Shown piece by piece: positions 182 to 14,293 of a stretch of 15,992 bases of DNA (positions are counted from its first letter, which is position 1; each line of letters begins with the position of its first letter). Origin of the DNA: Candidatus Thorarchaeota archaeon (lineage in GTDB: Archaea > Asgardarchaeota > Thorarchaeia > Thorarchaeales > Thorarchaeaceae); NCBI GenBank assembly GCA_016840855.1, contig JAEORO010000055.1:1-15992 (forward strand), read 5' to 3'. The notes under the pieces are model-generated. The model worked only from the letters and a program-made list of their open reading frames with translations. It was not told the origin of the DNA and did no database searches. A program made the translations under genes and the position numbers.

Positions 182-229
182 AAGTAGAAACTGACAGGAT
201 TTGGTGTCCATTGTGTTCGTTTCATTTTT
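182..229 (+). repeat. Degenerate, internally deleted copy (copy 0) of the dispersed intergenic repeat
   Basis: aagtagaaactgacaggatttggtg matches copy 3 (aagtagaggctgacggggtcgggtg) at 19/25 positions. It then runs directly into cattgt...tttcattttt, like the repeat 3' tail. The central hairpin is missing. Confidence 0.5.
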
Positions 230-305
230 ATCCGGAGGATTTTTTTCTAATCATCATTACAGTCATTGTATGCAAGAAGTGAGAATTGATATTCATTACT
301 AAGAC

Positions 306-470
306 TCATGAATCTTCAAGCATATCCCCAGTCTGAACTGCTACTTTCTCTGCGATGCTATCAACAAGTAACCAAACTCCAAGCAAGGGAACTGCAGCTA
401 GCAGATAATTCATAAATCCATATTCACTATAGTTAAGCAGCTTCTGTGGATAAGCCCATAGAGAATTTGT
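306..470 (-). pseudogene. Possible 3' remnant of a membrane-protein gene
   Basis: Minus-strand frame ...LWAYPQKLLNYSEYGFMNYLLAAVPLLGVWLLVDSIAEKVAVQTGDMLEDS* has one TM-like segment and a natural-looking C-terminus. The nominal start lies antisense inside the neighbouring gene, so there is no credible start. Confidence 0.3.
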
Positions 471-495
471 ATTACTATTTCGAAAAGAGGAGATA

Positions 496-1095
496 GTGAA
501 TAATTTGAGAAAAATTATCGTTTTGTCATTCATAACGCTTGATGGTGTCATTCAAGCGCCCGGCGGCCCTCAAGAAGACACCTCTGGTGATTTCAAATAC
601 GGTGGCTGGTTAGCTCCTTATTTTGATGATTTTCTAGGCAAAGTGATGTCTGAACAGATGGGTAGACCCTTCGATTTGTTGTTAGGGCGAAAAACATTTG
701 AGATATTCGCGTCATATTGGCCTAATCAAGAGAGTCCAATAAATGAAGCAACAAAGTATGTTGTTTCGAATACGCTCATGAAGCATGAATGGAATAAGTC
801 GGTCTTTTTGAAGGGCGATATCGTGAAGAAAATCAGAGAGCTCAAGTCACAAGATGGCCCTGAACTGCAAGTTCATGGCAGCGGCAATCTCATCCAAACA
901 CTATTGAAACATGATCTGGTTGATGAGTTGTGGCTCAAGATTTTCCCCGTCACTCTTGGTGCGGGAAAGCGCTTATTTGTGGAAGGTACTATTCCTGCTG
1001 CGCTCACGCTAAAGGATTTCAAAATCTCGCCAAAAGGAGTCATCGTTGCCTCCTATGAACGTGCAGGAGATGTGAAAACCAGCTCCGTCGCCTAA
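496..1095 (+). CDS. Dihydrofolate reductase-like / RibD C-terminal domain protein
   Basis: Motifs (L)RKIIV..FITLDGVIQAPGGP.ED..G.F.YGGW, LLLGRKTFEIFA.YWP, KYVVS, VHGSGNLIQTLL..DLVDEL.L...PV.LG.GKRLF. GAGGAG RBS before the GTG start. Confidence 0.92.
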   Translation: MNNLRKIIVLSFITLDGVIQAPGGPQEDTSGDFKYGGWLAPYFDDFLGKVMSEQMGRPFDLLLGRKTFEIFASYWPNQESPINEATKYVVSNTLMKHEWNKSVFLKGDIVKKIRELKSQDGPELQVHGSGNLIQTLLKHDLVDELWLKIFPVTLGAGKRLFVEGTIPAALTLKDFKISPKGVIVASYERAGDVKTSSVA

Positions 1096-1096
1096 G

Positions 1097-1219
1097 AGAA
1101 GGCACATCAAGATGCTCCCAGCAATATCCAATCCCCAAAAACGATTCTCTCTAACAGAAGAGGGTGAAAAATTTCTGAAGGAGAACACAGAGTTCATAAT
1201 AAGTCCCCGCAAAGTTTGA
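1097..1219 (+). pseudogene. Possible 3' remnant of a winged helix-turn-helix protein gene
   Basis: Frame RRHIKMLPAISNPQKRFSLTEEGEKFLKENTEFIISPRKV* starts immediately after the RibD-like stop. FSLTEEGEKFL resembles the wing motif (Y/F)xLTxxG of PadR/ArsR-type wHTH proteins. Confidence 0.4.
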
Positions 1220-1448
1220 AATTCTCGATTCGTCCGTTACTGGACTGCAGTTCTTCTCTTTTTGTCCGATGGAATCCTAGCCAGACGCGCATGTTGAATC
1301 TGCTGATTGACTGACGCGATTACACTTCGAAACTCATTGTGTATTAGATAAGTTTCGAAATGGCTAATATGTCAAAGCACTCACAAAGATATTTGATGAA
1401 TTGTCTGACTGGCCAGACTCTCTACTGGAAAATAAAGATGATGAAGAA

Positions 1449-1553
1449 AGCTTACTCTATCCTCGAGCAGAGAGAGGTGCAGGCTATGGGCGGGGTTGGC
1501 TAACGGGACCTTTCCCTTTGCTGTTCACTGTTGAGCACCCTTTCTCTTTTGCA
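1449..1553 (+). repeat. Dispersed structured repeat, copy 1 (long variant)
   Basis: agcttactctatcctcgagcagagagaggtgcaggctatgggcggggttggctaacgggacctttccctttgctgttcactgttgagcaccctttctcttttgca. About 13 differences over ~105 bp against copy 2 by manual alignment. Confidence 0.92.
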
Positions 1554-1633
1554 CAAGTCAGCTATCTAAGAGGCGATACTTACGGAGTAGTATATTTTGG
1601 TGAGTCATTCTGCTGCTCACATTTAGTCTTGGT

Positions 1634-2200
1634 TCAGCAGCCAGAAGTATTGTAAGAGATTATGACATCTCGGAAGTGACCTCTTTTGGTATCGCTTTCA
1701 ACTTGAGTTGCATGCCATTGGCGTAAACCTATAATCTTGGCAACAATCCTTCCTGCAAAGAAGCCAATAACAAAGCCATACAGTACAACCATGCCCAAAG
1801 TCAAGGATAATCCACCGCTTCCACCGAGTGCGATAGTGAGAAGCGCCCCACCAGGTGCAGCCAGAATTACAAATGGTGGGGCATATAGAAGCAACGCACG
1901 TGTGAAAGAAACACGAACTGATCCCTCTGTTCTTACTCGCCTATTAATAAACAAAGTCAGAATTATGTTCGTCACAAAGCCAAAAAAGCTGAGTGCTAAG
2001 TAGATCAGAGCCATACTCACATTTTCAAGTCCAGGAACCCAGTTTGATTCTTGTGGAGCATAAAACGTGTAAAAACCGACAAAGAACAAACTAATCAAAG
2101 TCACTGACGCCTCCTCGAAATTAAGCAGGTAATATCCTAGGAAACGTGTGAACTCGTATGTTTTCTGGACCGATTGTTGCTCTTCCGTGGATATGGTCAT
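1634..2200 (-). CDS. Hypothetical integral membrane protein (about 4 TM helices)
   Basis: 188 aa ORF with four long hydrophobic segments, 22 bp downstream of and co-oriented with the 308 aa gene. Confidence 0.75.
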   Translation of the reverse strand: MTISTEEQQSVQKTYEFTRFLGYYLLNFEEASVTLISLFFVGFYTFYAPQESNWVPGLENVSMALIYLALSFFGFVTNIILTLFINRRVRTEGSVRVSFTRALLLYAPPFVILAAPGGALLTIALGGSGGLSLTLGMVVLYGFVIGFFAGRIVAKIIGLRQWHATQVESDTKRGHFRDVIISYNTSGC

Positions 2201-2222
2201 GAGTTTCTCACACTGCTGTTGA

Positions 2223-3149
2223 TTACACAGAACCTTCTAAAGAGTATGATCGAATCCAGAGATCCTTCCATCCTCCGTAGGAGCATGATACCCATAAGTC
2301 TGGCCAGAAATATGAGTAGGAAAATCCATCACCTTGTTCAGCTTGGAGTACCGCACCAAGCCACCATACCAAGAAGAATTGATAAATCCCCAAGACCAGT
2401 AAAGTAGCTGATATGACAGCAGCTGCAAAAACAGCTAGTACTGCCGCAGCAGGTATAAAACCAGCGAAAAGTGCGAAACCCCCTGTAATAGAAAACAAGA
2501 TTACTCTCCACAAGCTTGCTTCATCTATAGCTGCATTAACCTCGCTTTGTGAGTGATGAGTTAGCATATAGCGCGATCCACCAGCTCTGTAATACCAACC
2601 GAGGTTCCACTGCTCTGGATGATACAGAGAGTAGTAGTAGTTGTCCGGATGTTCGTAGTCGACCGATCGTTGTGTGCTGCCAGGCGCCTTAATCATCTTG
2701 AATCCATTCCACCAATAGTACGTGAATGTTCCCCAATCCGATGAAGGTATAGCCTGTTTAACTGGTTTAATAACATCCTCCGGGGTGTCCTTTAACATCA
2801 CCACGTCTGATAGCTTGTCCACCATTTCTGAGGTTTCACTGGTCAACACGTTATTATTTTCATCAAATGTAAGATACTCCTGAGTATATCTTACCATCAA
2901 CTCAGCTTGTTCAATGTATGTTTCCCCTGAAACAACAATTTTCATCTTTGTTCCTTCGTATTCAAAGGAACATTCTCTCTCAAAAGGTCCAATCTTAGGA
3001 CTATGTCCTTCCAATATTGGAACTTTGGAGAAAGCCTCTATTCGTTCTGATTCAGAAGCAACTGGTATTGGGGCTATAAACGCTGCAAACATTAGCAAAA
3101 CCAATACAGTGACTACTGGAATCCTAACTATATTACGAAATCCCATCAA
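2223..3149 (-). CDS. Hypothetical secreted protein with C-terminal hydrophobic Ala/Gly-rich hairpin
   Basis: 308 aa. N-terminal basic plus hydrophobic signal-like segment (RNIVRIPVVTVLVLLMFAAFIAPIPVA), Tyr/Trp-rich middle region, and a ~50 aa hydrophobic stretch near the C-terminus. GAGGG RBS upstream. Confidence 0.78.
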   Translation of the reverse strand: MMGFRNIVRIPVVTVLVLLMFAAFIAPIPVASESERIEAFSKVPILEGHSPKIGPFERECSFEYEGTKMKIVVSGETYIEQAELMVRYTQEYLTFDENNNVLTSETSEMVDKLSDVVMLKDTPEDVIKPVKQAIPSSDWGTFTYYWWNGFKMIKAPGSTQRSVDYEHPDNYYYSLYHPEQWNLGWYYRAGGSRYMLTHHSQSEVNAAIDEASLWRVILFSITGGFALFAGFIPAAAVLAVFAAAVISATLLVLGIYQFFLVWWLGAVLQAEQGDGFSYSYFWPDLWVSCSYGGWKDLWIRSYSLEGSV

Positions 3150-3222: not shown

Positions 3223-3327
3223 AGCTTGCTCTGCTTTCGAGCAGAGAGAGGTGCAGGCTGACGAGCGGGGTTGGCTAACGGGACCTTTCCCTAGCCGCTC
3301 ACTGTTGAGCACCCTTCCTCTTTTGCA
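3223..3327 (+). repeat. Dispersed structured repeat, copy 2 (long variant)
   Basis: Direct repeat of copy 1. Stems: ctctgct-ttcg-agcagag, gagcgg/ccgctc, ggcta/tagcc, ggga-cctt-tccc, ggtgc/gcacc. Confidence 0.92.
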
Positions 3328-3472
3328 GTTGTAATTTGCTTGTTCGAGATAAAACTAGAATCACTTGGTCATGTCTGTCCATGTTCAAATTTATAATGCT
3401 AATTCCTTCCTCATACTTTCAATATAGAATTGACCCACAAGGGTAGAGGTGGTTTAACTGCAATATCTAAAA

Positions 3473-4462
3473 TTGAGTGGTGCATACTATGATATTGGTA
3501 AAAATTTTGGAAAATTCAGGAGGGGTTTCGATTACTACGCGACTCCAGATGAGAGGCGGCTTGAATTAGCCCTCAAGTGTGAGGATTTGTTGAAGGAACA
3601 TGCAAGCGATCTACACGATGAACTCTTGGGATTCTCCACGGGAATCAGACTGCCTTATGAATCAGTTCTAGCAAAGCAGCTTCTCCCTCACGAGATATCT
3701 GGTTGCAATCTCTTCTTTGTGAAAGGTGAATATACCGATAATGGACATCCAATCTTTGTCAGACACATGGACTGGATTGAGGATGACCTGCAACGTCTTA
3801 CCATGCTTGAAACAAGACAACTAGGAAAGAATGTTGCTCTTGGTCTTAGTTTTGCTGAATTGGGCTGCTTTGACGGAATAAACACAACAGGTCTGGCAGT
3901 AGGCACCGCATCAGTTCCATTCTTCATGGGTAAACAAAGTGTAGGTCTTCTCGACAGATACGTTGCCAGATGGGCTCTTGATAACTTCTCCTCAGTTGAG
4001 GAATCAGTAGACTATCTATATTCTGTTCCTCATGCTGAAGCAATCATTTTTCTTGTCGCAGATAGGAAAGGGACATCAGCCCGTATAGAGGTTTCACCCA
4101 CCAAGGTCCGAGCTGAAGTGTCAGATGAAGGAATTAATGTTGCTAACAACTTCTTCATTCTACAGGATATGCGTGAGCTAGATAGTATGCCTAAGGATGA
4201 TAGGTCTTGGACATATCATAGGAGAATCCATGATTGGTTCCTAAATACAAAACACAAGATTGGACTGAAACAGGTCAAGGAGATATGCAGGAATCATGAA
4301 ACGGGTATCTGTGAGCACCTGCAAGATCCTCCAGGAGGTACGATTTATTCTTGGATTTCAGAACTAGGAAGCGGCACCATCCATCTTTCAGTTGGATATC
4401 CATGTTCTAATCACTATGTTTCTTACGATATAGTTGAATCATCTCAGATGGGTAAGAAGTAG
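3473..4462 (+). CDS. C45 family autoproteolytic acyltransferase/hydrolase (Ntn hydrolase, AAT-like)
   Basis: SG.YYDIG N-terminus, G|C self-cleavage site (SGCNLFFV...G.PIFVRHMDW), DGINTTGLAVG, FLVAD..G...RIE and VANNF. The true start may be CTG at 3458, behind GAGGTGG at 3446-3452. Confidence 0.85.
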   Translation: MSGAYYDIGKNFGKFRRGFDYYATPDERRLELALKCEDLLKEHASDLHDELLGFSTGIRLPYESVLAKQLLPHEISGCNLFFVKGEYTDNGHPIFVRHMDWIEDDLQRLTMLETRQLGKNVALGLSFAELGCFDGINTTGLAVGTASVPFFMGKQSVGLLDRYVARWALDNFSSVEESVDYLYSVPHAEAIIFLVADRKGTSARIEVSPTKVRAEVSDEGINVANNFFILQDMRELDSMPKDDRSWTYHRRIHDWFLNTKHKIGLKQVKEICRNHETGICEHLQDPPGGTIYSWISELGSGTIHLSVGYPCSNHYVSYDIVESSQMGKK

Positions 4463-4530
4463 AGGCTGACGGGGTCGGGTGAACAGGGAACTTTCCCCTT
4501 TCTGACATTGTCGAACACCCCCACCATTTT
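4453..4530 (+). repeat. Dispersed structured repeat, copy 3 (overlaps stop codon of the C45 gene)
   Basis: taagaagtagaggctgacggggtcgggtgaacagggaactttcccctttctgacattgtcgaacacccccaccatttt. The first 44 bp match copy 4 at 43 positions. Confidence 0.92.
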
Positions 4531-4625
4531 GTTTCTTATTTCTTCTCTATTCTTGATTATTTGGTACAGTCTCAAGTCAGTACTAACTTTATGCATGATA
4601 TAGCTTCAAGAAATCATACAAAAAC

Positions 4626-5012
4626 TTGGAGTATCGAATTATGATAGAAGAAATGGAACAGATTCGAGAAACGGTAAATACCTACCTGGAAGCAGTGACC
4701 CACAAGGACTGGAACAAGTTTCAAGAATCATGGCATTCTGAAGCAAGGATGAATTTTGTAAGAGATGGGGAGGTACATTCTGTTTCTCGTTCATTCTGGA
4801 AAGATTGGTGTGAAAACCCGTTAGACCCTGAAGAGAAGAGAACCAGTATGATTACGTCGATTGATGTAACTGGTAACATCGCTGCGGCCAAAGTAGTTGT
4901 ACTCCGAGAAACACCTATTGAAAGGATGCTACTCACAGACTATCTGACTCTTCTTCAAGAAGATAATAACTGGCTAATTATTAGCAAATCTTACACATCC
5001 AGCATGGTCTAG
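4626..5012 (+). CDS. NTF2-like / putative lumazine-binding (Lumazine_bd_2) protein
   Basis: Pattern I...V..Y.EA....D...F...WH.EA.M, IDV.GNIAAAKV, TDYLTLL....W.IISK.Y. The start may be ATG at 4641. Confidence 0.85.
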   Translation: MEYRIMIEEMEQIRETVNTYLEAVTHKDWNKFQESWHSEARMNFVRDGEVHSVSRSFWKDWCENPLDPEEKRTSMITSIDVTGNIAAAKVVVLRETPIERMLLTDYLTLLQEDNNWLIISKSYTSSMV

Positions 5013-5049
5013 AACAACTAAGTAAAGTCACATAGTACACTGCTTCTAA

Positions 5050-5787: not shown

Positions 5788-5810
5788 GAATAACCCTCAC
5801 CGAATTGAGT

Positions 5811-5849: not shown

Positions 5850-5884
5850 GGCTTATAGATTGAAAATCGTCTGATTCATTGTTC

Positions 5885-5961
5885 TAAGAAGTAGAGGTTG
5901 ACGGGGTCGGGTGAACAGGGAACTTTCCTTCTCTGACACTGTTGAGCACCCTCTCACTTTT
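5885..5961 (+). repeat. Dispersed structured repeat, copy 4
   Basis: taagaagtagaggttgacggggtcgggtgaacagggaactttccttctctgacactgttgagcaccctctcactttt. Confidence 0.92.
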
Positions 5962-6067
5962 CACCTATCTAGTCATGTAAGTGGATTTTCTGTTTGCTAT
6001 CTTGTGGGATTCTATCTAATTTACTACCTGGATAGAATTCCATAGAATCTTTCGTTATCTTCTACAC

Positions 6068-7267: not shown

Positions 7268-7367
7268 GCATCATTGAATTAAGTAGTCCATTTAATTAAA
7301 AACACCTTTCAAAGCAAGTTATTTGAATTATTGAAAACAATCAATCACCTGAAAACGATGTGTATAT

Positions 7368-7429: not shown

Positions 7430-7437
7430 CAAATCAG

Positions 7438-9813
7438 TCAATTCACAGATTTCCGAAATCTCCCAATAATTTCATCTTGAACTTCTTTTCCCAAGTCCAC
7501 GTAATATGCACTGTAGCCCGCTACTCTTACAAGTATATTCCTGTATGAGTGGGGATTTGCTTGTGCTTTAAGAAGAACTTCTGGGTCAATCATGTTGAAT
7601 TGAATGTGCATTCCACCAAGTTCTACGTAGGAGGTCAGAATGGAAACAAGAGATTCCAACCCACTTTCCCCCTCTACAAAACTAGGATCCAGCGCGAGCG
7701 TGAAGGCAACTCCATTGGGATAGAGTGTATAATCAATACTTGTGACTGAATTAAGAACTGCAGTCAGACCCTTTGAAGGTGCTGATATTGCAGGTGAAAC
7801 ACCATTACTTAGAGGAGTTGATGGCAGTCGCCCACTAGGCAAAGCACCTGTGAACAGACCAAATGCTATGTGCGTGGTCACAGAGTACATGCCAGAGATG
7901 AATGATCCACCTCTGATGTTCCTATGTTTTTCTACCTCTTCACTATATATGCGCGCCACGAGCTGAGCATAGTCGTCCACAAATTTCTCATCATTACCAT
8001 ACTTAGGCGCCTTATTTTGCATCAATTGCCTGAGTGGTTCATGATTTTCGAAACCATCTCTCAGAGCAGTTATGAGCTCATTCATACTTACTTTCTTTTC
8101 CCTGAAGACAATCTGGTCTATTGCTGCGAGAGAGTCAGCAACATCAGCTAAACCAACTCCCTGAACCCCGGTGAAGTTATACCTTGCAGAACCAGTTGTG
8201 ATGTCTCGACCGTTTTCAAAACAGTCTTCTACGCAAAGTGAGAGTAGAGGGGTTGGTATCATCTCCATATTCAATTGTTCAAAAGAGTTTGAGCCCTCTG
8301 TCATGAGTCCCACCAAATACGAAACCTGTTTTCGAAATGCTTGAATAACTTCATCCATTGAGTGCCACCTTGTAGGGTCACCTGTCTTGAGACCAAGTTC
8401 TGCTCCCAGTAGTAGAGTTTCACCGTTATTCAACGCAAGCTCTAAGCACATTGCGAGATTGAAGAGGGCGGCATCTGATGAGGTGAAACTGCAACCAAAT
8501 GGAGCTAACTCCACGCACCCAACAGTAGCGTAGTTTCTTGCCTCATCCTTTGGTACTCCTTGTCTTTCCCATGATTTGACAATTGTTTCATCGCTGAAGA
8601 TTGCAATATTATTAGCCCCTGAGGCAATAACTGCCGCAATCTCTTTCATGAGATGTGACGGACTTTTTTGATGAATCCTGACATGGACATTGGGTAGGGG
8701 AAGTCCAACATTCTTTGTTGCTTCTAGGATCAAGTAGGTCATGTCGTTTGTTGCATCAAATCCTTCTTTATCGACTCCTCCAATTGTTACTGCTTGGGTT
8801 GTCAATAATCCCTCAAAATACATCCCAGTAAAGTTATCAAATGCTGGGACGTGCTCATTTGTCTTAAACCAGAGCATTTCAACAAGCTCAAGTGCTTCTT
8901 CCCTCGTCAGGTTTCCAGATTCAATATCATTTTTATAGAATGGTTGAAGATACTGGTCAATCCTTCCCATAGAGATTGCTTGACCATCATAAGTTTCGAT
9001 GGTGAGAGCAAGATGAGTGAATCTAATGAACTGAATGGCTTCATGAAGGTTTCTTGGTGGTTTCGCGGGAACCCATTGACATATCGCAGCAATTCTTTCT
9101 AGCTCTTCCTTTCTCTTGATATCACTCTCCTCCTTAGCCAACTTCGCTGCTCGCTCAGAATATCGATTTGCAAATTGGATTATTGCATTGGCCACGATTC
9201 TTGCGGCCTTGTAGAAGTTTATTTTGTCGAAAAACTCCGTATCTTTTACTTCACCGTACTCTCCAATTCGTTTCTCTGCCAATTTACTAAATTCTTCAAA
9301 GCCCATCGAAAGAAGCATCGGGTAATTTATACTCAGATGGCCAAACCCAGCGACCTCTGTGAGAATAAAAACTGAGCCAGCGTACAAAGTTTCTAATATC
9401 TTCTCAGGAGTCTTCTTATCCGCCTGTGCTATCAAGGACATATCAGTCCAATATGAAGCAATTTCATCTTGTACAGCTCTGATGTCTTCTTGTGTGACTT
9501 CTATCACTCTGCAATCTCTTGCGCTTAGCTCTTCAAGCTCTGGAACTATTCTTGAACCATGAGCTTCTGGATACACCATTGCACCCCGAATCTTATCCGA
9601 AACACTACCCACAACCAGCTCATCGGAGAATATCTTCACAGGGATGCCTTTCAGTATGTTTGCAAGAGACTTTGCTTGCCTGATTATTTGAGGCTCTCCC
9701 TCAGTTGATCTCATTGAATCAGTATGCAACCTGGTCCTTTCAATACTCAAATGTGTCTTAGATTCAAGAATACGATCCCGCATTATTTGACTTCTAGAGG
9801 TCACGTCTCTCAC
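7438..9813 (-). CDS. Glycyl radical enzyme, PFL2/PflD (dehydratase/eliminase-like) class
   Basis: 791 aa. Gly-radical motif RVAGYS, single-Cys loop GCVEL, SMGRIDQYL.PFY..D, APKYGND, GALPSGR and HIQFN. Confidence 0.93.
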   Translation of the reverse strand: MRDVTSRSQIMRDRILESKTHLSIERTRLHTDSMRSTEGEPQIIRQAKSLANILKGIPVKIFSDELVVGSVSDKIRGAMVYPEAHGSRIVPELEELSARDCRVIEVTQEDIRAVQDEIASYWTDMSLIAQADKKTPEKILETLYAGSVFILTEVAGFGHLSINYPMLLSMGFEEFSKLAEKRIGEYGEVKDTEFFDKINFYKAARIVANAIIQFANRYSERAAKLAKEESDIKRKEELERIAAICQWVPAKPPRNLHEAIQFIRFTHLALTIETYDGQAISMGRIDQYLQPFYKNDIESGNLTREEALELVEMLWFKTNEHVPAFDNFTGMYFEGLLTTQAVTIGGVDKEGFDATNDMTYLILEATKNVGLPLPNVHVRIHQKSPSHLMKEIAAVIASGANNIAIFSDETIVKSWERQGVPKDEARNYATVGCVELAPFGCSFTSSDAALFNLAMCLELALNNGETLLLGAELGLKTGDPTRWHSMDEVIQAFRKQVSYLVGLMTEGSNSFEQLNMEMIPTPLLSLCVEDCFENGRDITTGSARYNFTGVQGVGLADVADSLAAIDQIVFREKKVSMNELITALRDGFENHEPLRQLMQNKAPKYGNDEKFVDDYAQLVARIYSEEVEKHRNIRGGSFISGMYSVTTHIAFGLFTGALPSGRLPSTPLSNGVSPAISAPSKGLTAVLNSVTSIDYTLYPNGVAFTLALDPSFVEGESGLESLVSILTSYVELGGMHIQFNMIDPEVLLKAQANPHSYRNILVRVAGYSAYYVDLGKEVQDEIIGRFRKSVN

Positions 9814-10197
9814 TCCTAATCTCGTTCAACACTCATCCATATATCTCATGCCAATCTGTCTGCTATTTCATTTAAGGAACTCGGACTCATAATGGAATCC
9901 ATAGATGGGTACGAAGTAGAGAGCAGAAATATGAAGAAATGCTGGCTCATCTATCAGATTAACTGTTTCTTATTGAACATCCTCTCATTTGTCTTTGATT
10001 TATTCTCTTTAATTAAGCGTATCATAGAGTCTGTTTTCATTTTTTCTCGAAATGTCTTTCATGAGTTTCTTCATATCATCAATTACCTCATTGAACTCTC
10101 TAATCTTTCAATTATTGAATACATAACACTCCCTCGAACGGTCATAAGTAAGTGTGATATTGATGAAACTGTCACCTGGAATATAACAAGTGAAGGA

Positions 10198-10785
10198 TCA
10201 AACTAACCGTGGAATATCACCTTTCGCAAGAACACCATAGTGTTGAATGAAGTCATTTTTTGTGAAGTCCATGATGGCAATATCATCTCGTTGTCCGTTG
10301 ATATATGCCCCTTCTCTAATGAATCCCACCATTTGAAATCCAATCTTCTCATAGAAATTAATTGCATGTTGATTGAATTTGTAGACAAAGAGATAGATAT
10401 TGTGCAATCCTAGAATATTGAAGGTGAAATCGAGTAGAACCAATATCGCATCTTTTCCATAACCCTTTCGTCTATTGTTTTTGTCAAAGATTGCTAGGTT
10501 ATCAATCATACCTGTGCCGCTGATCCAGTTGATGTTAGAAACATCAATGAATCCCACAATTCTCCCTGTTTCTTTTTCTTCAATACCGAATGTGAAGATA
10601 TATCGACCTGCAAATCCTTCATTTCTGGATGAAATGAATTCTTGAACCTCCTTGTATGTCTTTGGGAAAGGATTTGGGAAATATTGTCTAAGTTCGAAGT
10701 TATTCCACTGTTCAAAGATAACATCTGCATCTTCAATCTCTAAGCGCCTTAGTCGTATTAATTCTCCTTGGTACATGGATATCAT
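10198..10785 (-). CDS. GNAT N-acetyltransferase, RimJ/RimL family
   Basis: GE.IRLR.LE..D, R.KGYGKDA...LLDF.F..LGLH.I.L.V...N..AI.FYEKIGF...G..RE. Confidence 0.92.
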   Translation of the reverse strand: MISMYQGELIRLRRLEIEDADVIFEQWNNFELRQYFPNPFPKTYKEVQEFISSRNEGFAGRYIFTFGIEEKETGRIVGFIDVSNINWISGTGMIDNLAIFDKNNRRKGYGKDAILVLLDFTFNILGLHNIYLFVYKFNQHAINFYEKIGFQMVGFIREGAYINGQRDDIAIMDFTKNDFIQHYGVLAKGDIPRLV

Positions 10786-10926
10786 GTATTTTGATTCCTC
10801 CCTAATTTTAACTATTTAGAACTACGCGAGTGGATATTGGCGATAGATCTCACTTTATCAAGAATATATGTTCGAAAACTCAAATCTAGAGTCTTCTATC
10901 ATACATCTCAAACACATAATGGGTAT

Positions 10927-10992
10927 AGGCTGACGGGGCAGGTATTCGGGGAACTTACTCCTTCCTCACCTGTTGAGTCACCCTTTCATTTT
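10927..10992 (+). repeat. Dispersed structured repeat, copy 6
   Basis: aggctgacggggcaggtattcggggaacttactccttcctcacctgttgagtcaccctttcatttt. Confidence 0.85.
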
Positions 10993-11008
10993 GATCTCAC
11001 AATATTCT

Positions 11009-11815
11009 CTACTTAGTGGCTTTTACAATAAAGAACCTCTGAGGTAGATTTGGTTTGGATTTGATTCTAATCTTGTATCGTTTAAAATAACCCTCAATTG
11101 GTACGACACCTGAAACAACGTCTAATGTAAATCCATAGGTTTCCAAAATTGTCGCAAACTCTTCTCCTGTGAAGGGGGTATGCGTTTCCTGCATCTCTTC
11201 CTGTTCGAGGGGTGTATCAAATGCCCATAATTTGGTGATGAACTCATAGAGATCGCGCATGGAAATCCTGACTCGCTCATCATCAAGAACTACGAAGCTG
11301 AACGGACGGTATTCAAACGAATTCTGAAAACGTTCAAGCTGTAGAAGCATCTTGTCATTGAAACTGACATCTACCAATTCATCACCAGGATTTTGATGGT
11401 CCATTATAACGAATGCGCCACCTTCACGAAGAAGTGTGCCAATCTCCTCTATTGTGCTCAACAGAACGTCCCTACCGGAAAAACACAACACCTCACTAAG
11501 AGATTGTACAGCCACTACTGCATCGAAAGAACCTGATTTGAAAGGAAATTTAGGTATTAGCGCTTGAATGCGAGAAACAAGCTGCTCAATTAGATCCTTC
11601 AACTGATGAGTTAACATATACTTGGAGAGATCGAGTTCAACTACTTGGGTTGAAGACATCCGTTGATTGATCAATGTTGTAAGAGCACCAACCCCACAGC
11701 CAGCATCAAGAACCAATGATGCATCTCGCGGAATTAGTGCTGCTATCTCATGAAGATAACCTTGGCGAGATCTATGGCTCATTACCCGAGCCATCTCCTT
11801 TTCTGAAGATGTCAT
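11009..11815 (-). CDS. Class I SAM-dependent methyltransferase
   Basis: Motif I VLDAGCGVG, LDLS..ML, PF..GSFDAVV, LREGG.FVI.D. Confidence 0.88.
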   Translation of the reverse strand: MTSSEKEMARVMSHRSRQGYLHEIAALIPRDASLVLDAGCGVGALTTLINQRMSSTQVVELDLSKYMLTHQLKDLIEQLVSRIQALIPKFPFKSGSFDAVVAVQSLSEVLCFSGRDVLLSTIEEIGTLLREGGAFVIMDHQNPGDELVDVSFNDKMLLQLERFQNSFEYRPFSFVVLDDERVRISMRDLYEFITKLWAFDTPLEQEEMQETHTPFTGEEFATILETYGFTLDVVSGVVPIEGYFKRYKIRIKSKPNLPQRFFIVKATK

Positions 11816-11893
11816 TCTAAAAACTGTGTTATTGGTTGTTTGATATGAATATATGTAAGCAAGTAAGAATCAAATTGAATATCTATAGAGAAT

Positions 11894-11969
11894 AAGTTGA
11901 AGCTGACGGGGTCAGATGAACAAAGAACTTCTCCGTTCCTCGAACTGTTAAACGATTTCTCCATCTTTT
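11894..11969 (+). repeat. Dispersed structured repeat, copy 7 (diverged)
   Basis: aagttgaagctgacggggtcagatgaacaaagaacttctccgttcctcgaactgttaaacgatttctccatctttt. The 5' half aligns ungapped with copies 3 and 4. Confidence 0.8.
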
Positions 11970-12102
11970 ATTAAAAGAACTCTTTGTTAAGATAAGCTCT
12001 GAGAAATTCTCTATGGACCAAGAATTGTTTGTAGCGTCATAGTAGTTTCTCGCTGGTGTGGTTTCACACCCTCTCGACTGAGAAGTGTTACGCTTCCTCA
12101 GA

Positions 12103-12201: not shown

Positions 12202-12220
12202 TTTATTTTTCTCCTATTGA

Positions 12221-12808
12221 TTAATCATTTAATCCCTTTCCATTGAGAATTTGCTGCATGCATTTTTCAACCCTTGACTCCCGAGTTTTGGATTGTTTGG
12301 GTGCAGAAAAATAAAGAATGTATGCTCTTTGCCGCCCCGGGGTCAAGGCATCAAAAGCAGTCTTCAAGGCTGGGTTTTCATCTAATTTAGTCTGAAATTC
12401 TTCAGGAATTGTGTATTCTGTAGTCTTTTTGAAATCCACTTTCAAGCCGGCTTTTTCCACTTCAATGGCTTCATGAATATAGGCTTTCAAGACGGGTTCC
12501 ATCTCAATTATTTCTCGAGCACTTGTAAACCGAATCTGGCGCCCAGCCTGTGTATTCTCCGTTTGTCTGATTAGAATGCCCTTGGTGTCTTTTAATAAGA
12601 CACCTTTGACGAACAGAATCGCACAGTATTCTTTGAATCCGTGTATCAAAACCACGTTACTTTTCTGATACGTATAACAAGGAACACCCCACTTCAATTC
12701 CTCGGTCAGCCCACATTCGAGAATGATCATTCTCAATTTCTTAAATTCTTCCTGCCATTTTTTGGCTTTGCTTAGAAATGCATCAACCTTAGGATTCATT
12801 ATATTCAT
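12221..12808 (-). CDS. ydeI: YdeI family protein (DUF1801 plus YdeI/OmpD-associated domain)
   Basis: MNPKVD.FL..AKKWQEE..KLR.I.L.C.LTEELKWG.PCY, QTEN.QA.RQIRF, AF.ALTPGRQRAY..YFS.PKQSKTR.SRVEK....IL.GKGLND closely follow bacterial YdeI. Confidence 0.92.
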   Translation of the reverse strand: MNIMNPKVDAFLSKAKKWQEEFKKLRMIILECGLTEELKWGVPCYTYQKSNVVLIHGFKEYCAILFVKGVLLKDTKGILIRQTENTQAGRQIRFTSAREIIEMEPVLKAYIHEAIEVEKAGLKVDFKKTTEYTIPEEFQTKLDENPALKTAFDALTPGRQRAYILYFSAPKQSKTRESRVEKCMQQILNGKGLND

Positions 12809-12930
12809 TTATTGTTCCTCTGAAATAGAGTGAGCTTATATCTGCCTACAGTTTCTTTTCTTCTTTAACAAAGTATCCGTAGCGGAAGCTGCGAATGGAA
12901 TACCTCCTATGCTTTATCAGTTCTTAAACT

Positions 12931-13009
12931 GGTAAGAAATATGGGCTGATAGGGTGGGGTAAACAGGGGACTTGTCCTAGCCTATATTGTTGAGCACCCT
13001 TTTCATTTT
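12931..13009 (+). repeat. Dispersed structured repeat, copy 8
   Basis: ggtaagaaatatgggctgatagggtggggtaaacaggggacttgtcctagcctatattgttgagcacccttttcatttt. Confidence 0.88.
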
Positions 13010-13255
13010 ATATATCGTAATTCTATAACATGTGCGTCCATTTTTAATCCATGAATATTCTTTTGATTCTTAATGATCCTGTATTCGGTATAACAAACCA
13101 AGTTTAGCAATATCACTGAAAATGAGAATCCTGATGCAATAGTGGATATTTTCATAATAAGTGATACAGTTTTCTGTGTTGTTTAGAATAGTGAGTTGTA
13201 GAGTAAACGTTTCCTACACAAACGATTTTATAAGCTCAAGATATTAACTATAGTT

Positions 13256-13843
13256 ATGTCAAAGTCGTCATTTACTGCAGTCAAAAAAGAGTTGTCTCCA
13301 GAACAACGTGAAGAACTACTCAGAGCACTGAAAATCCGTTTTGAGGAAAGCATGAACCGACATAAAGGTCTTGAATGGGCTAAAGTGCAAGCAAGGCTGG
13401 AAGCCAATACTGAAAAATTGTGGTCGCTTGATGAAATGGAAAGATCTGGCGGTGAACCTGATGTTGTCGATCATGACAAAAAGACGGGCGAATACATTTT
13501 TTATGATTGTTCAGCGCAAAGTCCCAAAGGCCGCAGAAATGTTTGTTACGACCTTATAGGACAGGAAGAGAGGGAAAAGAAAGGGATTCATCCAAGAGGC
13601 AACGCTATTGATATGGCAGCTGCCATGGGTATTGATCTTTTAACAGAAGAACAATATCGAGCGCTACAGAAGCTTGGAGAATTCGATACGACGACATCTA
13701 GTTGGGTGAAAACACCTTCTGATATTAGAAAACTTGGTGGCGCCATCTTTATGGATCGCCGCTATGACACTGTCTTCGTGTATCATAACAGTGCGCCTTC
13801 TTTCTATAGTGCTAGAGCCTTCCGTGGCTCGCTAAGGGTCTAA
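13256..13843 (+). CDS. DUF4256 family protein
   Basis: LK.RFE..M.RH.GLEW.KV...L, L.EME..GGEPDVV, F.DCSA.SPKGRR..CYD, LQKLGEFD..TSSW.KTP..IR.LGGAIF.DRRY..VFVYHN.A.S(F/Y)Y..R.FRG.LRV. Confidence 0.88.
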   Translation: MSKSSFTAVKKELSPEQREELLRALKIRFEESMNRHKGLEWAKVQARLEANTEKLWSLDEMERSGGEPDVVDHDKKTGEYIFYDCSAQSPKGRRNVCYDLIGQEEREKKGIHPRGNAIDMAAAMGIDLLTEEQYRALQKLGEFDTTTSSWVKTPSDIRKLGGAIFMDRRYDTVFVYHNSAPSFYSARAFRGSLRV

Positions 13844-13921
13844 ACTATAATGCAGCTGGTTTGATAACAATTGAAGAGTGAAAGAATTCCATATAGAGAT
13901 ATGACGGGGTGGGAATAATCA

Positions 13922-14076
13922 ATGAAAGTCAAATATTTTGATTGTGATGAGGTGATTGAATCAGGAAGCCTAGAAACACTTGCGGATGTTTTTGTGGCAC
14001 ATGCACAATACGCGGATTCCAACCAGTTGTTGTTCGAGAACGTGATGCCGTGATGCGTCTGCAAGTACTCCATTGA
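13922..14076 (+). pseudogene. Probable internally deleted GNAT-type gene (N- and C-terminal stubs joined out of frame)
   Basis: GGGGTG RBS, then MKVKYFDCDEVIESGSLETLADVFVAHAQ from 13922. A second frame from 14011 gives RGFQPVVVRERDAVMRLQVLH*, resembling a GNAT C-terminus (GF..V......VMR). The family assignment is from recall and unverified. Confidence 0.45.
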
Positions 14077-14248
14077 ACAGACCAAGAAACAGCAGAGTGT
14101 ATTCTATTCAATAGTGGTGTTTGTTTCATCCTATGAGCTCAAGAATTTCATCCAGAATCTTGTGCCTTTACTTCTCCTTTATGTTCGGGAATGACCAGTC
14201 TGCATGTGGTTAATAATAACAGCTCAAGGAAATCTTTGTCATATTAAA

Positions 14249-14293
14249 AACCGGATCTTTTCATGCAACTCATTGTCGAGTGCTTTTTCTTTT
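14249..14293 (+). repeat. Degenerate 3' half of the dispersed repeat (copy 9)
   Basis: aaccggatcttttcatgcaactcattgtcgagtgctttttctttt aligns to copy 2 aacgggacctttccctagccgctcactgttgagcacccttcctctttt. Confidence 0.5.

What the first reader, a model, noticed from the sequence alone, without database searches (positions are those of the whole stretch)
182..14293. Array of gene modules separated by a co-oriented structured repeat: candidate novel cassette/gene-capture system
Seen in sequence: eight clear copies (1449, 3223, 4453, 5885, 7368, 10927, 11894, 12931) and two degenerate edge copies (182, 14249) of one repeat family. All are on the + strand and all are intergenic, apart from copy 3 overlapping a stop codon. 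Measured at the conserved GT(T/C)RARY-like heptamer, the spacings are 1774, 1206, 1431, 1469, 3562, 975, 1042 and 1286 bp. Each interval holds one or two functionally unrelated genes in either orientation. The array is bounded by an M24 peptidase gene and a corrinoid operon. Established knowledge: integron arrays have this logic and similar cargo (GNATs, methyltransferases, NTF2-like and DUF1801 proteins). Differences here: the 5' arm is GGCTGAC rather than RYYYAAC, the GGCTGAC-to-GTTGAGC span is only about 52 bp, homology continues about 20 bp beyond GTT, cargo lies on both strands, and no integrase is in the window. Inference: these are recombination or capture sites of an undescribed archaeal cassette system whose enzyme is encoded elsewhere.
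Basis: partly seen in the sequence, partly recalled or inferred. Interest (0 to 1): 0.92.

Follow-up and report, generated by a model that had tools for sequence, protein, structure and literature searches.

The report
16S rRNA trailer repeats flank cassettes
The repeat is a reiterated copy of the short stretch that follows the 16S ribosomal RNA gene, and in Thorarchaeota (Asgard archaea) it separates swappable accessory-gene modules, so the locus behaves like an integron built on a ribosomal-RNA flank instead of on an integrase.

Summary
The repeat family is real: 8 strong copies and 2 weak relics in the window, all on the + strand. It is not bounded by the M24 peptidase and the corrinoid operon. 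The array continues on contig C54 (4 copies) and C238 (1 copy).

The unit is not an attC-like hairpin. It is a paralogue of the 3' trailer of the 16S rRNA gene, the strand that pairs with the 16S 5' leader. In 14 of 15 related genomes with at least 150 nt after the 16S, plus G006 and G017, the first copy lies directly behind the 16S, on the same strand. Fifteen mid-array copies still carry 7-72 nt of the 16S 3' end, including window 12866-12908.

Arrays occur in 34 of 36 other family genomes searched. Modules are shuffled between species with orientation kept. One module is 94.5% identical between species whose rpoB region is 83% identical. Breakpoints fall at scattered positions inside the repeats.

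No tyrosine, serine or Y1 recombinase is consistently present. My best reading is an rDNA-anchored cassette island run by homologous recombination. The mechanism is inferred, not shown.

The parts
170..207 (+). weak relic of the repeat (5' part, model positions 3-40)
   Evidence: R1 with filters off, E 0.0088, 9th best hit. The neighbouring stretch 203-362 is 78% identical to G006:C24 7499-7657, which lies beside a weak copy there.
1463..1558 (+). repeat copy, type A (trailer type resembling the native trailers of other genera)
   Evidence: R1 61.6 bits. Its 3' part aligns best to the native trailer of G029.
3236..3332 (+). repeat copy, type A
   Evidence: R1 60.7 bits. Best reference is the native trailer of G029, 88%.
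4444..4536 (+). repeat copy, type B (genus-type trailer); overlaps the stop of ORF 3473-4462
   Evidence: R1 82 bits. 87% identical to the native 16S trailer of G006, positions +11 to +104 after the 16S end.
5880..5965 (+). repeat copy, type B
   Evidence: R1 77.5 bits. 89% to the G006 native trailer.
7349..7438 (+). repeat copy, type B
   Evidence: R1 60.6 bits. A contig of a run from another study (X12 record 13, 6586-7594) bridges it with 0 differences.
10909..10997 (+). repeat copy, type B
   Evidence: R1 58.7 bits. Bridged by X11 record 6 (10606-11839, 3 differences).
11882..11974 (+). repeat copy, type B, the most diverged
   Evidence: R1 59.5 bits. Bridged by X13 record 23 (11040-12338, 4 differences).
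12866..12908 (+). fragment of the 16S rRNA gene 3' end (43 nt ending in ...CACCTCCT), directly ahead of the next repeat copy
   Evidence: blastn-short against the last 120 nt of native 16S genes: 91% to G006. The stretch 12866-13009 aligns to G006 and G017 '16S end + trailer'. Contigs of other runs that align from 12866 onward continue upstream as 16S sequence (loose ends).
12924..13015 (+). repeat copy, type B, contiguous with the 16S fragment
   Evidence: R1 68.6 bits. Together with the fragment it covers -42 to +103 of the G006 native unit at 82%. Bridged by X12 record 15.
14253..14296 (+). weak relic of the repeat (3' half, model positions 44-91)
   Evidence: R1 with filters off, E 0.058, 10th best hit.
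3..104 (+). C-terminal end of an M24 peptidase gene that starts on contig C54
   Evidence: 5'-open ORF. C54 ends in a 3'-open Peptidase_M24 ORF. Window 1-85 matches G004:C57 at the end of a full-length M24 gene.
496..1095 (+). module: RibD_C-like reductase
   Evidence: Pfam PF01872 4.7e-23. The same gene sits between two repeats in G006 at another array position.
1634..3149 (-). module of two ORFs without a Pfam family (188 and 308 aa); recently exchanged between species
   Evidence: No Pfam match. Window 1489-3228 is 94.5% identical to G027:C206 with different neighbours, while the rpoB region is 83% identical.
3473..4462 (+). module: AAT-family (acyl-CoA:6-APA acyltransferase-like) hydrolase
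   Evidence: Pfam PF03417 1.3e-17.
4626..5787 (.). module: SnoaL/lumazine-binding-like protein (+, 4626-5012) and HTH_10 regulator (-, 5050-5787)
   Evidence: Pfam. The same pair lies at a different array position in G004:C57.
6068..7267 (-). module: LVIVD-repeat protein
   Evidence: Pfam PF08309 3.4e-29. Homologues lie in the arrays of G017, G006, G012 and G001.
7438..10785 (.). module: glycyl-radical enzyme (-, 7438-9813), small ORF (+, 9892-10206), GNAT acetyltransferase (-, 10198-10785)
   Evidence: Pfam PF02901, PF01228 and GNAT families. The glycyl-radical enzyme and the GNAT lie apart in G004:C57.
11009..11815 (-). module: class I SAM methyltransferase
   Evidence: Pfam PF08241.
12221..12808 (-). 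module: DUF1801/OmdA protein
   Evidence: Pfam. Its order relative to the DUF4256 module is swapped in G017, with orientation kept.
13256..13843 (+). module: DUF4256 protein
   Evidence: Pfam PF14066 4.9e-83. See the row above for the order swap.
14367..15991 (+). module: corrinoid operon (B12-binding protein and URO-D/MtaA-like methyltransferase; continues into RACo on C238, followed by another repeat)
   Evidence: Pfam. The exact 127-nt overlap joins the window to C238. The trio c12-c13-c14 is flanked by repeats in G009, G021 and G022 as well.

Best explanation
The organism is a Thorarchaeota (Asgard) archaeon.

Shown: the repeat is a paralogue of the native 3' trailer of the single 16S rRNA gene. 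The native trailer is about 100-170 nt. Its sequence (...GAAGTAGAGGC...ACGGGG...CTGTTGAGC-ACCC, then T-runs) pairs with the 16S 5' leader to form the pre-16S processing stem.

Shown: the array starts at the 16S 3' end and runs downstream in the 16S direction, inside the 16S-23S gap. Some copies keep 7-72 nt of the 16S gene itself.

Inferred: each unit is the scar of an insertion. DNA carrying a copy of '16S 3' end + trailer' plus cargo recombines with the chromosomal unit, either by a Campbell-type single crossover or by repair of a break there. This places the cargo behind the 16S and leaves the unit duplicated in direct orientation. Repeating this builds the array.

Shown: modules flanked by these units are reordered with orientation kept and are exchanged between species. 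Junctions lie inside the units at varying positions. The copies within a genome are homogenised towards that genome's own native trailer.

Inferred: the engine is the host's homologous recombination acting on the repeats as portable homology arms, not a dedicated integrase. Recombination between two direct units would release a circle with one unit plus cargo, which could re-enter at any unit of any relative. In some lineages a homing endonuclease may start the event.
For: 1. Position. In G017 the 16S (RF01959) lies at L004 17706-19207 (-) and the first repeat at 17599-17680 (-). In G006 the 16S lies at L007 4252-5753 (+) and the first repeat at 5768-5863 (+). Of the 15 loci fetched that hold at least 150 nt after the 16S, 14 have an R1 hit directly behind it on the same strand. 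The miss is L137/G063. G070 has one copy in its whole genome, and it is the native one.

2. Leader pairing. Weak R1 hits on the opposite strand lie just upstream of the 16S in 5 loci. Leader GCTCAACAG pairs with trailer CTGTTGAGC, with compensatory changes: AGCAG:CTGCT in G077, G030 and G078, and GCTCGACA:TGTCGAGC in G080. Leader-trailer duplex energies have z <= -2.3 in 16 of 17 genomes.

3. 16S fragments. Fifteen of the 138 array copies that could be aligned start inside the 16S (-72 to -7), including window 12866-12908. In genus genomes some fragments are of a 16S type with an insertion. That type is native to other genera but not to G006 or G017.

4. Distribution. In the own genome the repeat occurs only on C230, C54, C238 and, weakly, C234. 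It is found in 34 of 36 other family genomes and in 0 of 24 genomes outside the family. Of 162 nhmmer hits in 49 loci, 161 are co-oriented within their contig. The exception is a leader complement.

5. Module behaviour. Order is shuffled with orientation kept (G000 against G017 and G004). Window 1489-3228 is 94.5% identical to G027, while rpoB is 83% identical. Six further blocks of at least 90% identity between species have one or both ends in flanking repeats. Their ends fall at left model positions of about 29, 40, 46, 68, 70 and 98, and at right positions of <1, 18, 27, 27, 53 and 85.

6. Homogenisation. Four G017 copies are 94-96% identical to G017's own trailer, and three G030 copies are 92.5-93.7% identical to G030's. 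Orthologous cargo between G000 and G017 is 73-85% identical.

7. No enzyme. PF00589 is found in 8 of 27 genus genomes and 14 of 36 family genomes, and no listed match lies on a contig that searches list with arrays. PF00239 and PF01797 are found in 0 of 5 genomes. G017 also lacks any TnpB TNB-domain hit.

8. Not an assembly chimera at 4 junctions. Contigs from runs of other studies bridge the copies at 7349, 10909, 11882 and 12924.
Against: No insertion or excision event was observed. The joints in public-run contigs have only 22-23 nt on one side and link repeat copies, so they are cross-mapping.

All genomes are metagenome bins. G000 has no 16S contig, so in the window's own genome the link to the 16S rests on the 16S fragment at 12866-12908 and on relatives.

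Blast-hit ends are only rough breakpoints, and some shuffling could reflect misjoins at repeats in other bins.

Homologous recombination explains spread and shuffling but not how cargo from outside the family first acquires a trailer.

The TGTTGAGC core and the right edge (...TTTT(G)CA) look very well kept, with the most frequent base in at least 0.93 of copies at each core position among 124 copies. This could point to a recognition site, although that count was anchored on the motif itself and so is biased.

In another Asgard family the copies start at -12, -14 and -20 of the 16S. That looks more site-specific, and there a LAGLIDADG endonuclease gene lies beside the unit.

Absence of recombinase families in 71-97% complete bins is not proof of absence.
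Confidence: 0.55

Rival explanations
1. This is a true site-specific cassette system, integron-like. An as yet unrecognised recombinase acts on the conserved core of the trailer copy (around CTGTTGAGC-ACCC-TTTT). The native 16S trailer plays the part of attI and the array copies the part of attC.
For: The array logic, co-orientation, module size (median interval 1401 bp; 54 of 122 intervals hold one ORF and 34 hold two) and cargo types (GNAT, methyltransferases, toxin-antitoxin pairs, DUF1801) resemble integron arrays. The core and the right edge are well kept. Many copies retain only the 3' half, model positions 43-95.
Against: The copies do not fold by themselves. The R'' position does not fit RYYYAAC. 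No IntI or any PF00589 protein is found in 19 of 27 genus genomes, and none lies on the array contigs listed. No resolvase or Y1 transposase is found in 5 of 5 genomes. Among the cargo clusters sent to Pfam (20 of the clusters), none is a recombinase. The ends of recently exchanged blocks are spread over model positions <1 to 98. ORFs run 160 with and 98 against the repeat direction.
Confidence: 0.2
2. Nuclease-triggered homing. A homing endonuclease (LAGLIDADG or HNH) or a TnpB-type RNA-guided nuclease cuts the 16S 3' end or trailer of a naive allele. Break repair then copies the cargo from an allele that carries it, leaving duplicated flanks.
For: In G094 (family f5) a free-standing LAGLIDADG gene lies right after the duplicated unit, beside an LRR-protein insert. 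This fits the published description of an element between the 16S and a tRNA gene in Heimdallarchaeum (PMC8813620, passages). In G017 an HNH endonuclease gene ends at a 16S fragment plus trailer unit. In at least 7 genomes a TnpB-like gene (cluster c5) lies near the 16S. Its conserved 3' non-coding tail is followed by GGATCACCTCCT, the 16S terminus, in 3 of 6 copies aligned.
Against: In the Thorarchaeota loci held, homologues of that LAGLIDADG protein occur only inside 16S introns, and the HNH gene occurs only in G017 (tblastn). The c5 family is multi-copy and riddled with stops, like an insertion sequence. It is not found (E <= 1e-10) in 11 of 27 genus genomes, including G006 and G017, which have full arrays. 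The 12-mer after c5 is degenerate in 2 of 6 copies and missing in 1 of 6, as expected of a decaying relic. The only TnpB gene in G000 is a secondary insertion into a ParE module.
Confidence: 0.15
3. The copies are kept for a function of their own at gene borders. They could be transcription terminators or insulators taken from the end of the 16S unit, or RNA decoys for the 16S leader. On this reading, module mobility is a by-product.
For: Every unit ends in T-runs (CCCTTT(T)CATTTT), as an archaeal terminator would. The link between T-runs and archaeal termination is established knowledge, recalled. The leader-pairing core is the best-kept part. Sixty-two percent of ORFs run with the repeat.
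Against: The T-runs can terminate in one direction only, yet 98 of 258 ORFs face the other way. Copies range from full units with 16S fragments to half units and relics, as scars would. The high core conservation can come from gene conversion by the selected native copy and from how the copies were found. No RNA run holds the locus (0 of 20 rows), so this reading is untested.
Confidence: 0.07
4. It is an ordinary dispersed repeat (MITE or REP), or an artefact of metagenome assembly and binning.
For: All genomes are bins, and contigs often break at or near the 16S and the repeats.
Against: In the own genome the copies lie only on contigs C230, C54, C238 and, weakly, C234. C230 and C238 overlap exactly, and C54 probably precedes C230. 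161 of 162 hits are co-oriented. The arrays lie inside long contigs such as the 243-kb contig of G017. The same architecture recurs in 34 of 36 family genomes. Four window junctions are bridged by contigs of runs from other studies.
Confidence: 0.03

Closest known systems
Integron cassette arrays and CALINs, including the archaeal integrons reported as enriched in Asgard archaea (PMC9668308; I saw the abstract start and passages)
   Same: Tandem, co-oriented repeats separate small, functionally unrelated modules. Cargo types are similar. [quoted passage not shown] Most arrays have no integrase nearby. The 3' arm happens to read GTTRRRY in 6 of 8 window copies.
   Different: The unit is homologous to the 16S rRNA trailer and the 16S 3' end. 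It does not fold alone and lacks an RYYYAAC partner. The array is anchored on the 16S gene, not on intI/attI. Cargo runs both ways (160 against 98). Breakpoints are not fixed. Whether any published Asgard CALINs are in fact these arrays could not be checked, because IntegronFinder was not available and the paper's supplementary data were closed.
Direct att repeats left by elements that integrate into the 3' end of tRNA or tmRNA genes, and tandem accretion of such islands (general knowledge, recalled; the archaeal tyrosine-recombinase review PMC8371274 was seen only as a search listing)
   Same: The repeats are copies of the 3' part of a stable-RNA gene plus its flank. They are in direct orientation, with the intact gene at one end. 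Several generations are piled up.
   Different: The target is the 16S rRNA gene and its processing-stem trailer. The modules are mostly 1-2 ordinary genes without an integrase. No integrase family is consistently present in the genomes. There are up to 15-18 units per genome.
HeimM2 (8 kb) and HeimV2 (44 kb) of Candidatus Heimdallarchaeum, described as inserted exactly between the only 16S rRNA gene and a tRNA-Arg gene (PMC8813620; passages)
   Same: In another Asgard lineage, mobile DNA enters directly behind the single 16S gene. In family f5 genomes I found the matching signature: 1-2 duplicated '16S end + trailer' units, an LRR-protein insert and a LAGLIDADG gene.
   Different: The passages I read do not mention duplicated 16S trailers or arrays. 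In Thorarchaeota the site has grown into arrays of a dozen or more units with single-gene modules and no endonuclease gene.
Flexible genomic islands and integration hotspots turned over by homologous recombination at conserved flanks (PMC4033161, seen only as a search listing and abstract start)
   Same: It is a hypervariable accessory region at a fixed chromosomal address, exchanged between relatives by recombination in conserved sequence.
   Different: Here the conserved anchor is reiterated inside the island, so every module has its own pair of homology arms.
Archaeal pre-rRNA processing stems, and the unlinked 16S and 23S genes of Asgard archaea (PMC8997704; passages)
   Same: The native first copy is the 3' strand of the 16S leader-trailer helix. 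The 16S and 23S genes are unlinked, as that paper reports for Thorarchaeota.
   Different: Reiteration of the trailer is not described in the passages I read. A bulge-helix-bulge motif was not identified here. In G017 the array fills the first 9 kb of a 69-kb co-oriented gap between the 16S and the 23S.

Membership tests
Integron attC site / CALIN | Inverted core sites R'' (RYYYAAC) and R' (GTTRRRY) at the two ends | tested here: not met
   Read from alignments A2 and A3. The R' position fits GTTRRRY in 6 of 8 window copies; the misses are GTCGAAC at 4444 and ATTGAGC at 7349. The matching 5' position reads GGTGAAC or GGCTAAC, which does not fit RYYYAAC. The consensus motifs themselves are recalled.
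Integron attC site / CALIN | The single strand folds by itself into an imperfect hairpin | tested here: not met
   Ten ssDNA folds (5 copies, both strands). The eight type-B folds give z from -0.30 to +0.65. The type-A copy gives -1.85 and -2.22. The consensus RNA fold is worth -0.47 kcal/mol.
Integron attC site / CALIN | An IntI-type tyrosine recombinase beside the array or elsewhere in the genome | tested here: not met
   PF00589 gives 0 matches in G000 (92% complete). Among the other genus genomes it is found in 8 of 27, and in 14 of 36 family genomes. No listed match lies on a contig that searches list with arrays.
Integron attC site / CALIN | Crossover at one fixed point (G|TT of R') | tested here: inconclusive
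   The ends of blocks of at least 90% identity between species fall at model positions from <1 to 98. Blast-hit ends are only approximate.
Pre-16S rRNA 3' trailer (processing-stem strand) | Lies directly 3' of the 16S rRNA gene on the same strand | tested here: met
   True for the first copy in G006 and G017 and in 14 of 15 further loci with at least 150 nt after the 16S. The window copies are paralogues of it, 80-89% identical to the G006 or G017 native trailers.
Pre-16S rRNA 3' trailer (processing-stem strand) | Complementary to the 5' leader, with compensatory changes | tested here: met
   Opposite-strand model hits lie upstream of the 16S in 5 loci. Three kinds of compensatory change are seen in the GCTCAACAG:CTGTTGAGC helix. 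Duplex z <= -2.3 in 16 of 17 genomes.
Pre-16S rRNA 3' trailer (processing-stem strand) | Bulge-helix-bulge cleavage motif in the stem | tested here: inconclusive
   Reading the G006 leader and trailer by eye shows a 4-bp helix flanked by small internal loops, but no canonical 3-4-3 motif could be assigned.
att repeats of an element integrated into the 3' end of a stable-RNA gene | Direct repeats contain the 3' end of the target gene | tested here: met
   Fifteen of 138 aligned array copies start 7-72 nt inside the 16S. In family f5 the copies start at -146, -20, -14 and -12.
att repeats of an element integrated into the 3' end of a stable-RNA gene | An integrase is encoded by the inserted element | tested here: not met
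   No recombinase family appears among the window, C54 and C238 genes or among the 20 cargo clusters sent to Pfam out of those. Unannotated ORFs remain.
MITE / REP element | Dispersed over the genome in both orientations, next to unrelated core genes | tested here: not met
   In the own genome the hits lie only on 4 contigs; C230 and C238 overlap exactly and C54 probably joins C230. 161 of 162 hits in 49 loci are co-oriented.
IS200/IS605 end or TnpB guide-RNA region | The repeat lies at the 3' end of a tnpB gene or at the ends of the element | tested here: not met
   G000 has one TNB-domain gene (C54 2872-4095). It is a 1365-bp insertion relative to G017, lying inside a ParE module and not at a repeat. 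G017 has arrays and no TNB hit.

The most novel reading that the evidence does not exclude
Asgard archaea, and Thorarchaeota above all, use the 3' end and processing-stem trailer of their single 16S rRNA gene as a universal docking site for gene modules, without a dedicated integrase. Each insertion reiterates the trailer. This creates a self-propagating set of homology arms that lets single genes circulate among species and genera, an 'integron without an integrase'. Stepwise accretion at this site could also be what pushed the 16S and 23S genes apart in these lineages. Some clusters of 'attC sites without integrase' reported in Asgard genomes may be these arrays.
Probability: 0.3. Interest if true: 0.9.

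Novelty: new variant of a known kind. Interest (0 to 1): 0.75.

Why it matters
If the reading holds, it describes a route of gene acquisition and exchange in the archaeal group closest to eukaryotes that needs no mobile-element enzyme. The route relies only on a conserved ribosomal-RNA flank and the cell's own recombination.

It gives a concrete, testable address for the accessory genome of Thorarchaeota. Arrays were found in 34 of 36 family genomes searched, with up to 15-18 units each.

It links three observations that have been treated separately: mobile elements docking behind the 16S gene in Heimdallarchaeum, 'integrase-less integrons' reported in Asgard genomes, and the unlinked rRNA genes of Asgard archaea.

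It also has a practical side. The repeats help explain why 16S contigs break in these bins. In one search, 11 of the 20 fetched stretches were cut by a contig end within 3.3 kb after the 16S.

Finally, a GTTRRRY-like motif in a co-oriented repeat is not enough to call an attC site.

Tried and rejected
Rfam search of the window at E <= 1: no family. tRNA scan of 8 loci: only one unrelated tRNA-Ala. So the repeat is neither a known RNA family nor a tRNA-derived att site.

attC reading: rejected on fold, on the R'' motif and on the absence of an integrase.

The 429-aa ORF next to the 16S in G017 and in C54 was considered as a recombinase candidate. Its sequence reads as a signal-peptide, membrane-anchored protein, and its only Pfam match is far below the family cut-off. 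I dropped it.

TnpB-like cluster c5 as the engine: not supported. No 16S fragment lies on its upstream side.

The giant ORF next to the 16S in G040 compared with the Thorarchaeota giant ORF c1: no similarity by BLASTP, best E 1.3.

Public runs. The stretch is held by 20 rows from 6 studies, none on record as RNA. I laid 4 of the 20 runs (X11, X12, X13, X15). The eight joints listed have sides of 22-26 nt. Seven link repeat copies and the eighth skips 166 nt inside the DUF4256 gene. I read them as cross-mapping of other copies or organisms, not as excision products. Parts of the window without cover in some runs are not used as evidence.

I used only the taxon name in the titles of the archaeal rows.

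The following were not used: structure prediction, fold search, complex prediction, the search for homologous proteins, the search of protein representatives, the protein-atlas search, the listing of cluster members, search_dna_similar.

Literature. Searches found no paper describing reiterated 16S trailers or a 16S-anchored cassette array. This covers only the library searched. Supplementary data of PMC9668308 (the list of archaeal integron contigs) and of PMC8997704 (processing stems) could bear on this and were closed.

Full report
**1. The observation.**
The repeat finder recovers the family. A profile built from the 8 window copies hits the own genome (3.36 Mb, 259 contigs, 92% complete) only on C230 (the window, 8 copies), C54 (4 copies), C238 (1 copy) and, weakly, C234. 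All hits are on the + strand of their contigs. A sequence-only covariance model of 13 copies (R1) scores the window copies at 58.7-82 bits. Both are on + and both are partial. There is no Rfam match at E <= 1. The genes between copies are unrelated: RibD_C, two ORFs without a family, AAT, SnoaL-like plus HTH_10, LVIVD, a glycyl-radical enzyme plus GNAT, a methyltransferase, DUF1801/OmdA, DUF4256, and then a corrinoid operon.

**2. The array is larger than the window.**
C54 ends in a 3'-open M24 peptidase gene, and the window starts with the last 33 codons of such a gene. The two contigs do not overlap, so a short gap is inferred. C54 carries, in order: M3 peptidase, repeat, a 429-aa membrane protein, repeat, a TnpB gene plus ParE, repeat, four genes, repeat, M24. 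The last 127 nt of the window equal the first 127 nt of C238. C238 continues the URO-D gene and RACo, then has another repeat followed by a nucleotidyltransferase-like gene. So the M24 gene and the corrinoid operon are modules inside the array, not its bounds. G000 holds at least 13 clear copies over at least 28 kb.

**3. What the repeat is.**
Record titles of the archaeal hits of a motif scan name the group as Candidatus Thorarchaeota. R1 finds the repeat in 34 of 36 other genomes of the family (27 of 27 in the genus) and in 0 of 24 genomes of other families of the phylum. The hits form co-oriented clusters.

In the 243-kb contig of G017 the array (8 copies, 9 kb) ends 26 nt from the 3' end of the 16S rRNA gene, on the same strand. 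In G006 the first copy starts 15 nt after the 16S. I fetched the 16S neighbourhood of 20 more family genomes. Fifteen hold at least 150 nt after the 16S, and 14 of those have an R1 hit right behind it on the same strand. The miss is G063, whose flank looks different. G070 has a single copy in its genome, and it is this native one.

Upstream of the 16S, 5 loci show weak R1 hits on the opposite strand, meaning the leader is complementary to the repeat. There are compensatory changes in G077, G030, G078 and G080, and further helices nearer the gene. Leader-trailer duplex energies beat shuffled trailers in 16 of 17 genomes, with z from -2.3 to -6.8; G063 gives -1.1.

By themselves the copies do not fold better than shuffles. 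The unit is therefore the 3' strand of the pre-16S processing stem, ending in T-runs. Its resemblance to an attC arm is coincidental.

**4. Copies carry pieces of the 16S gene.**
Searching the last 120 nt of native 16S genes against all Thorarchaeota loci finds fragments of about 20 to 75 nt, nearly all ending in ...CACCTCCT, ahead of mid-array copies. They occur in G017, G027 (4 copies), G082, G076, G004, G012, G001, G022, G077 and G029, and in the window at 12866-12908.

I aligned 145 non-native copies to native '16S end + trailer' references, and 138 aligned. Fifteen start inside the 16S (-72 to -7). The others start at various points of the trailer. The right ends cluster at the end of the T-rich tail, about +94 to +114 on the G006 reference. 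About a third of the copies extend into a further conserved block also present in native flanks (read by eye).

Some fragments in genus genomes belong to a 16S type with an insertion before the terminal CACCTCCT. That type is native to G028, G029, G080 and G082 but not to G006 or G017. The window's type-A copies (1463, 3236, and C54 868) match the trailer type of G029. These units therefore came from other genera.

**5. Module behaviour.**
Across 49 loci (0.52 Mb) there are 162 hits, of which 161 are co-oriented within their contig. The 122 intervals have a median length of 1401 bp; 54 hold one ORF and 34 hold two. ORFs run 160 with and 98 against the repeat direction.

Cargo includes GNATs, methyltransferases, PIN/VapB and ParE toxin-antitoxin pairs, transporters, radical-SAM enzymes, a restriction-modification pair and the corrinoid operon. 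None of the 20 clusters sent to Pfam is a recombinase.

The same modules appear in different orders with orientation kept. G017 has DUF4256 then DUF1801, while the window has the reverse. G004 has GNAT, DUF1801, SnoaL+HTH_10, then the glycyl-radical enzyme.

Window 1489-3228 is 94.5% identical to G027, with entirely different neighbours. The block starts inside the left repeat and ends inside the left part of the right unit. The rpoB region of the same two genomes is 83% identical. This is a recent transfer.

Six more blocks of at least 90% identity between species have one or both ends in flanking repeats, at model positions spread from <1 to 98.

Within a genome the copies resemble that genome's own native trailer: 94-96% in G017 and 92.5-93.7% in G030. 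Orthologous cargo between G000 and G017 is 73-85% identical. This indicates gene conversion.

Contigs of runs from other studies bridge four of the window's repeats with 0-4 differences, so these junctions are not assembly chimeras.

**6. The search for an enzyme.**
PF00589 gives 0 matches in G000. It is found in 8 of 27 other genus genomes and 14 of 36 family genomes. No listed match lies on a contig that searches list with arrays. Resolvase and Y1 transposase are found in 0 of 5 genomes (G000, G017, G006, G027, G012). The TnpB TNB domain is found in 4 of 5, but not in G017.

The TnpB gene in C54 is a 1365-bp insertion relative to G017.

A pair of genes lies just behind the 16S in at least 7 genomes of several genera: a 1700-aa ORF without a Pfam family and a 580-610-aa TnpB-like gene, c5. 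The conserved 3' tail of c5 is followed by GGATCACCTCCT in 3 of 6 copies. However, the family is multi-copy, often broken by stops, and not found in 11 of 27 genus genomes, including G006 and G017. I therefore read the 12-mer as a relic of another unit.

An HNH gene abuts a unit in G017 only.

**7. Beyond Thorarchaeota.**
Using each genome's own '16S end + trailer' as the query, 6 of 22 other Asgard genomes have co-oriented extra copies within 20 kb after the 16S:
- G040: -146 to +198 at 97.4%, 14.2 kb downstream, and -12 to +140 about 1.5 kb further on.
- G162: two copies, one of them -14 to +84.
- G094: -20 to +113.
- G126: several partial copies.
- G050: one copy.
- G048: one weak copy.

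Four of these six belong to one family, f5, where 4 of 6 genomes tested are positive. The one genome tested from the sister family (G037) has none in 18 kb.

The inserts carry defence-type genes (SIR2-STAND, HEPN, AbiV) and, in G094, an LRR protein. A LAGLIDADG gene lies just beyond the duplicated unit there. This fits the published note that an 8-kb element with an LRR protein and a homing-endonuclease homologue, and a 44-kb virus-like element, sit exactly between the 16S and a tRNA gene in Heimdallarchaeum (PMC8813620, passages).

In G017 the 16S, the array and the 23S lie on one strand of one contig, 69 kb apart. In G035 and G084 the array and the 23S share a contig and a strand. Unlinked rRNA genes in Thorarchaeota are on record (PMC8997704, passages).

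**8. Reading.**
Shown:
- The identity of the unit.
- Its anchoring at the 16S.
- Its family-wide reiteration.
- Module shuffling and inter-species transfer with junctions in the units.
- Homogenisation of copies within a genome.
- No consistent recombinase.

Inferred:
- Units arise when DNA carrying '16S end + trailer' recombines with the chromosomal unit.
- Host homologous recombination then runs the array.

Site-specific or nuclease-triggered variants remain possible, and in family f5 they look more likely.

The paper on archaeal integrons reports mostly integrase-less attC clusters enriched in Asgard genomes and does not mention rRNA (PMC9668308, passages). Whether those overlap with the arrays found here is open.

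I found no description of this architecture in the library searched.

Noticed in passing
L146 (G015:C131) 11932-19017; also L134, L135, L139, L143, L144, L162: A conserved gene pair lies directly behind the 16S trailer in several genera. One is a roughly 1700-aa ORF with no Pfam family, on the opposite strand. The other is a 580-610-aa TnpB-like gene (TNB domain; RuvC-like and zinc-finger motifs read by eye). Its conserved 3' non-coding tail is followed by the 16S terminal 12-mer in 3 of 6 copies. The TnpB-like family is multi-copy, with up to 22 matches per genome.
   Followed up: partly
L001 (G000:C54) 2843-4207: A 1365-bp TnpB-only insertion sequence sits inside a ParE toxin module. G017 has the uninterrupted version. 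This is the only TNB-domain gene found in G000.
   Followed up: yes
window 13909-14244: Three short non-coding blocks upstream of the corrinoid operon (13909-14003, 14001-14076, 14126-14244) are 76-87% conserved in many genus genomes, often on other contigs than the operon. They have no Rfam match. They may be regulatory elements or small genes.
   Followed up: no
L140 (G035), L144 (G080), L145 (G014): The 16S genes here are 2.3-2.4 kb long and carry an intron-like insert. The insert encodes a LAGLIDADG protein 44-50% identical to the free-standing one beside the 16S-flank duplication in G094.
   Followed up: partly
native 16S 3' ends of G028, G029, G080, G082 (L139, L143, L144, L132): These genera have an extra hairpin-like insertion of about 30 nt just before the terminal CACCTCCT of the 16S. 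G006 and G017 lack it. Fragments of the insertion type survive in the arrays of genus genomes.
   Followed up: partly
family-wide: Strong XerA-like PF00589 hits (E 1e-39 to 1e-48) occur in several other Asgard families. Among the Thorarchaeota family genomes searched, 22 of 36 have no hit at all and the best is 1.5e-30. The family may lack a canonical Xer recombinase.
   Followed up: no
L169 (G040:C23) 3937-18183: A 14.2-kb insert between the native 16S unit and its 97.4% identical duplicate carries a 1625-aa ORF without a Pfam family abutting the trailer, a HEPN protein, four ORFs without a family and a SIR2-STAND NTPase. It looks like a recently docked defence island.
   Followed up: partly
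L004 (G017:C205) 14952-15500: An HNH endonuclease gene ends where a 65-nt 16S fragment plus trailer unit begins. No homologue was found in the other Thorarchaeota loci held or in G000.
   Followed up: partly
window 9969-9990: A very weak + strand match to the repeat core (E 0.13, model positions 65-86) lies between the glycyl-radical enzyme gene and the GNAT gene. It could be a decayed unit that once split this 3.5-kb interval.
   Followed up: no
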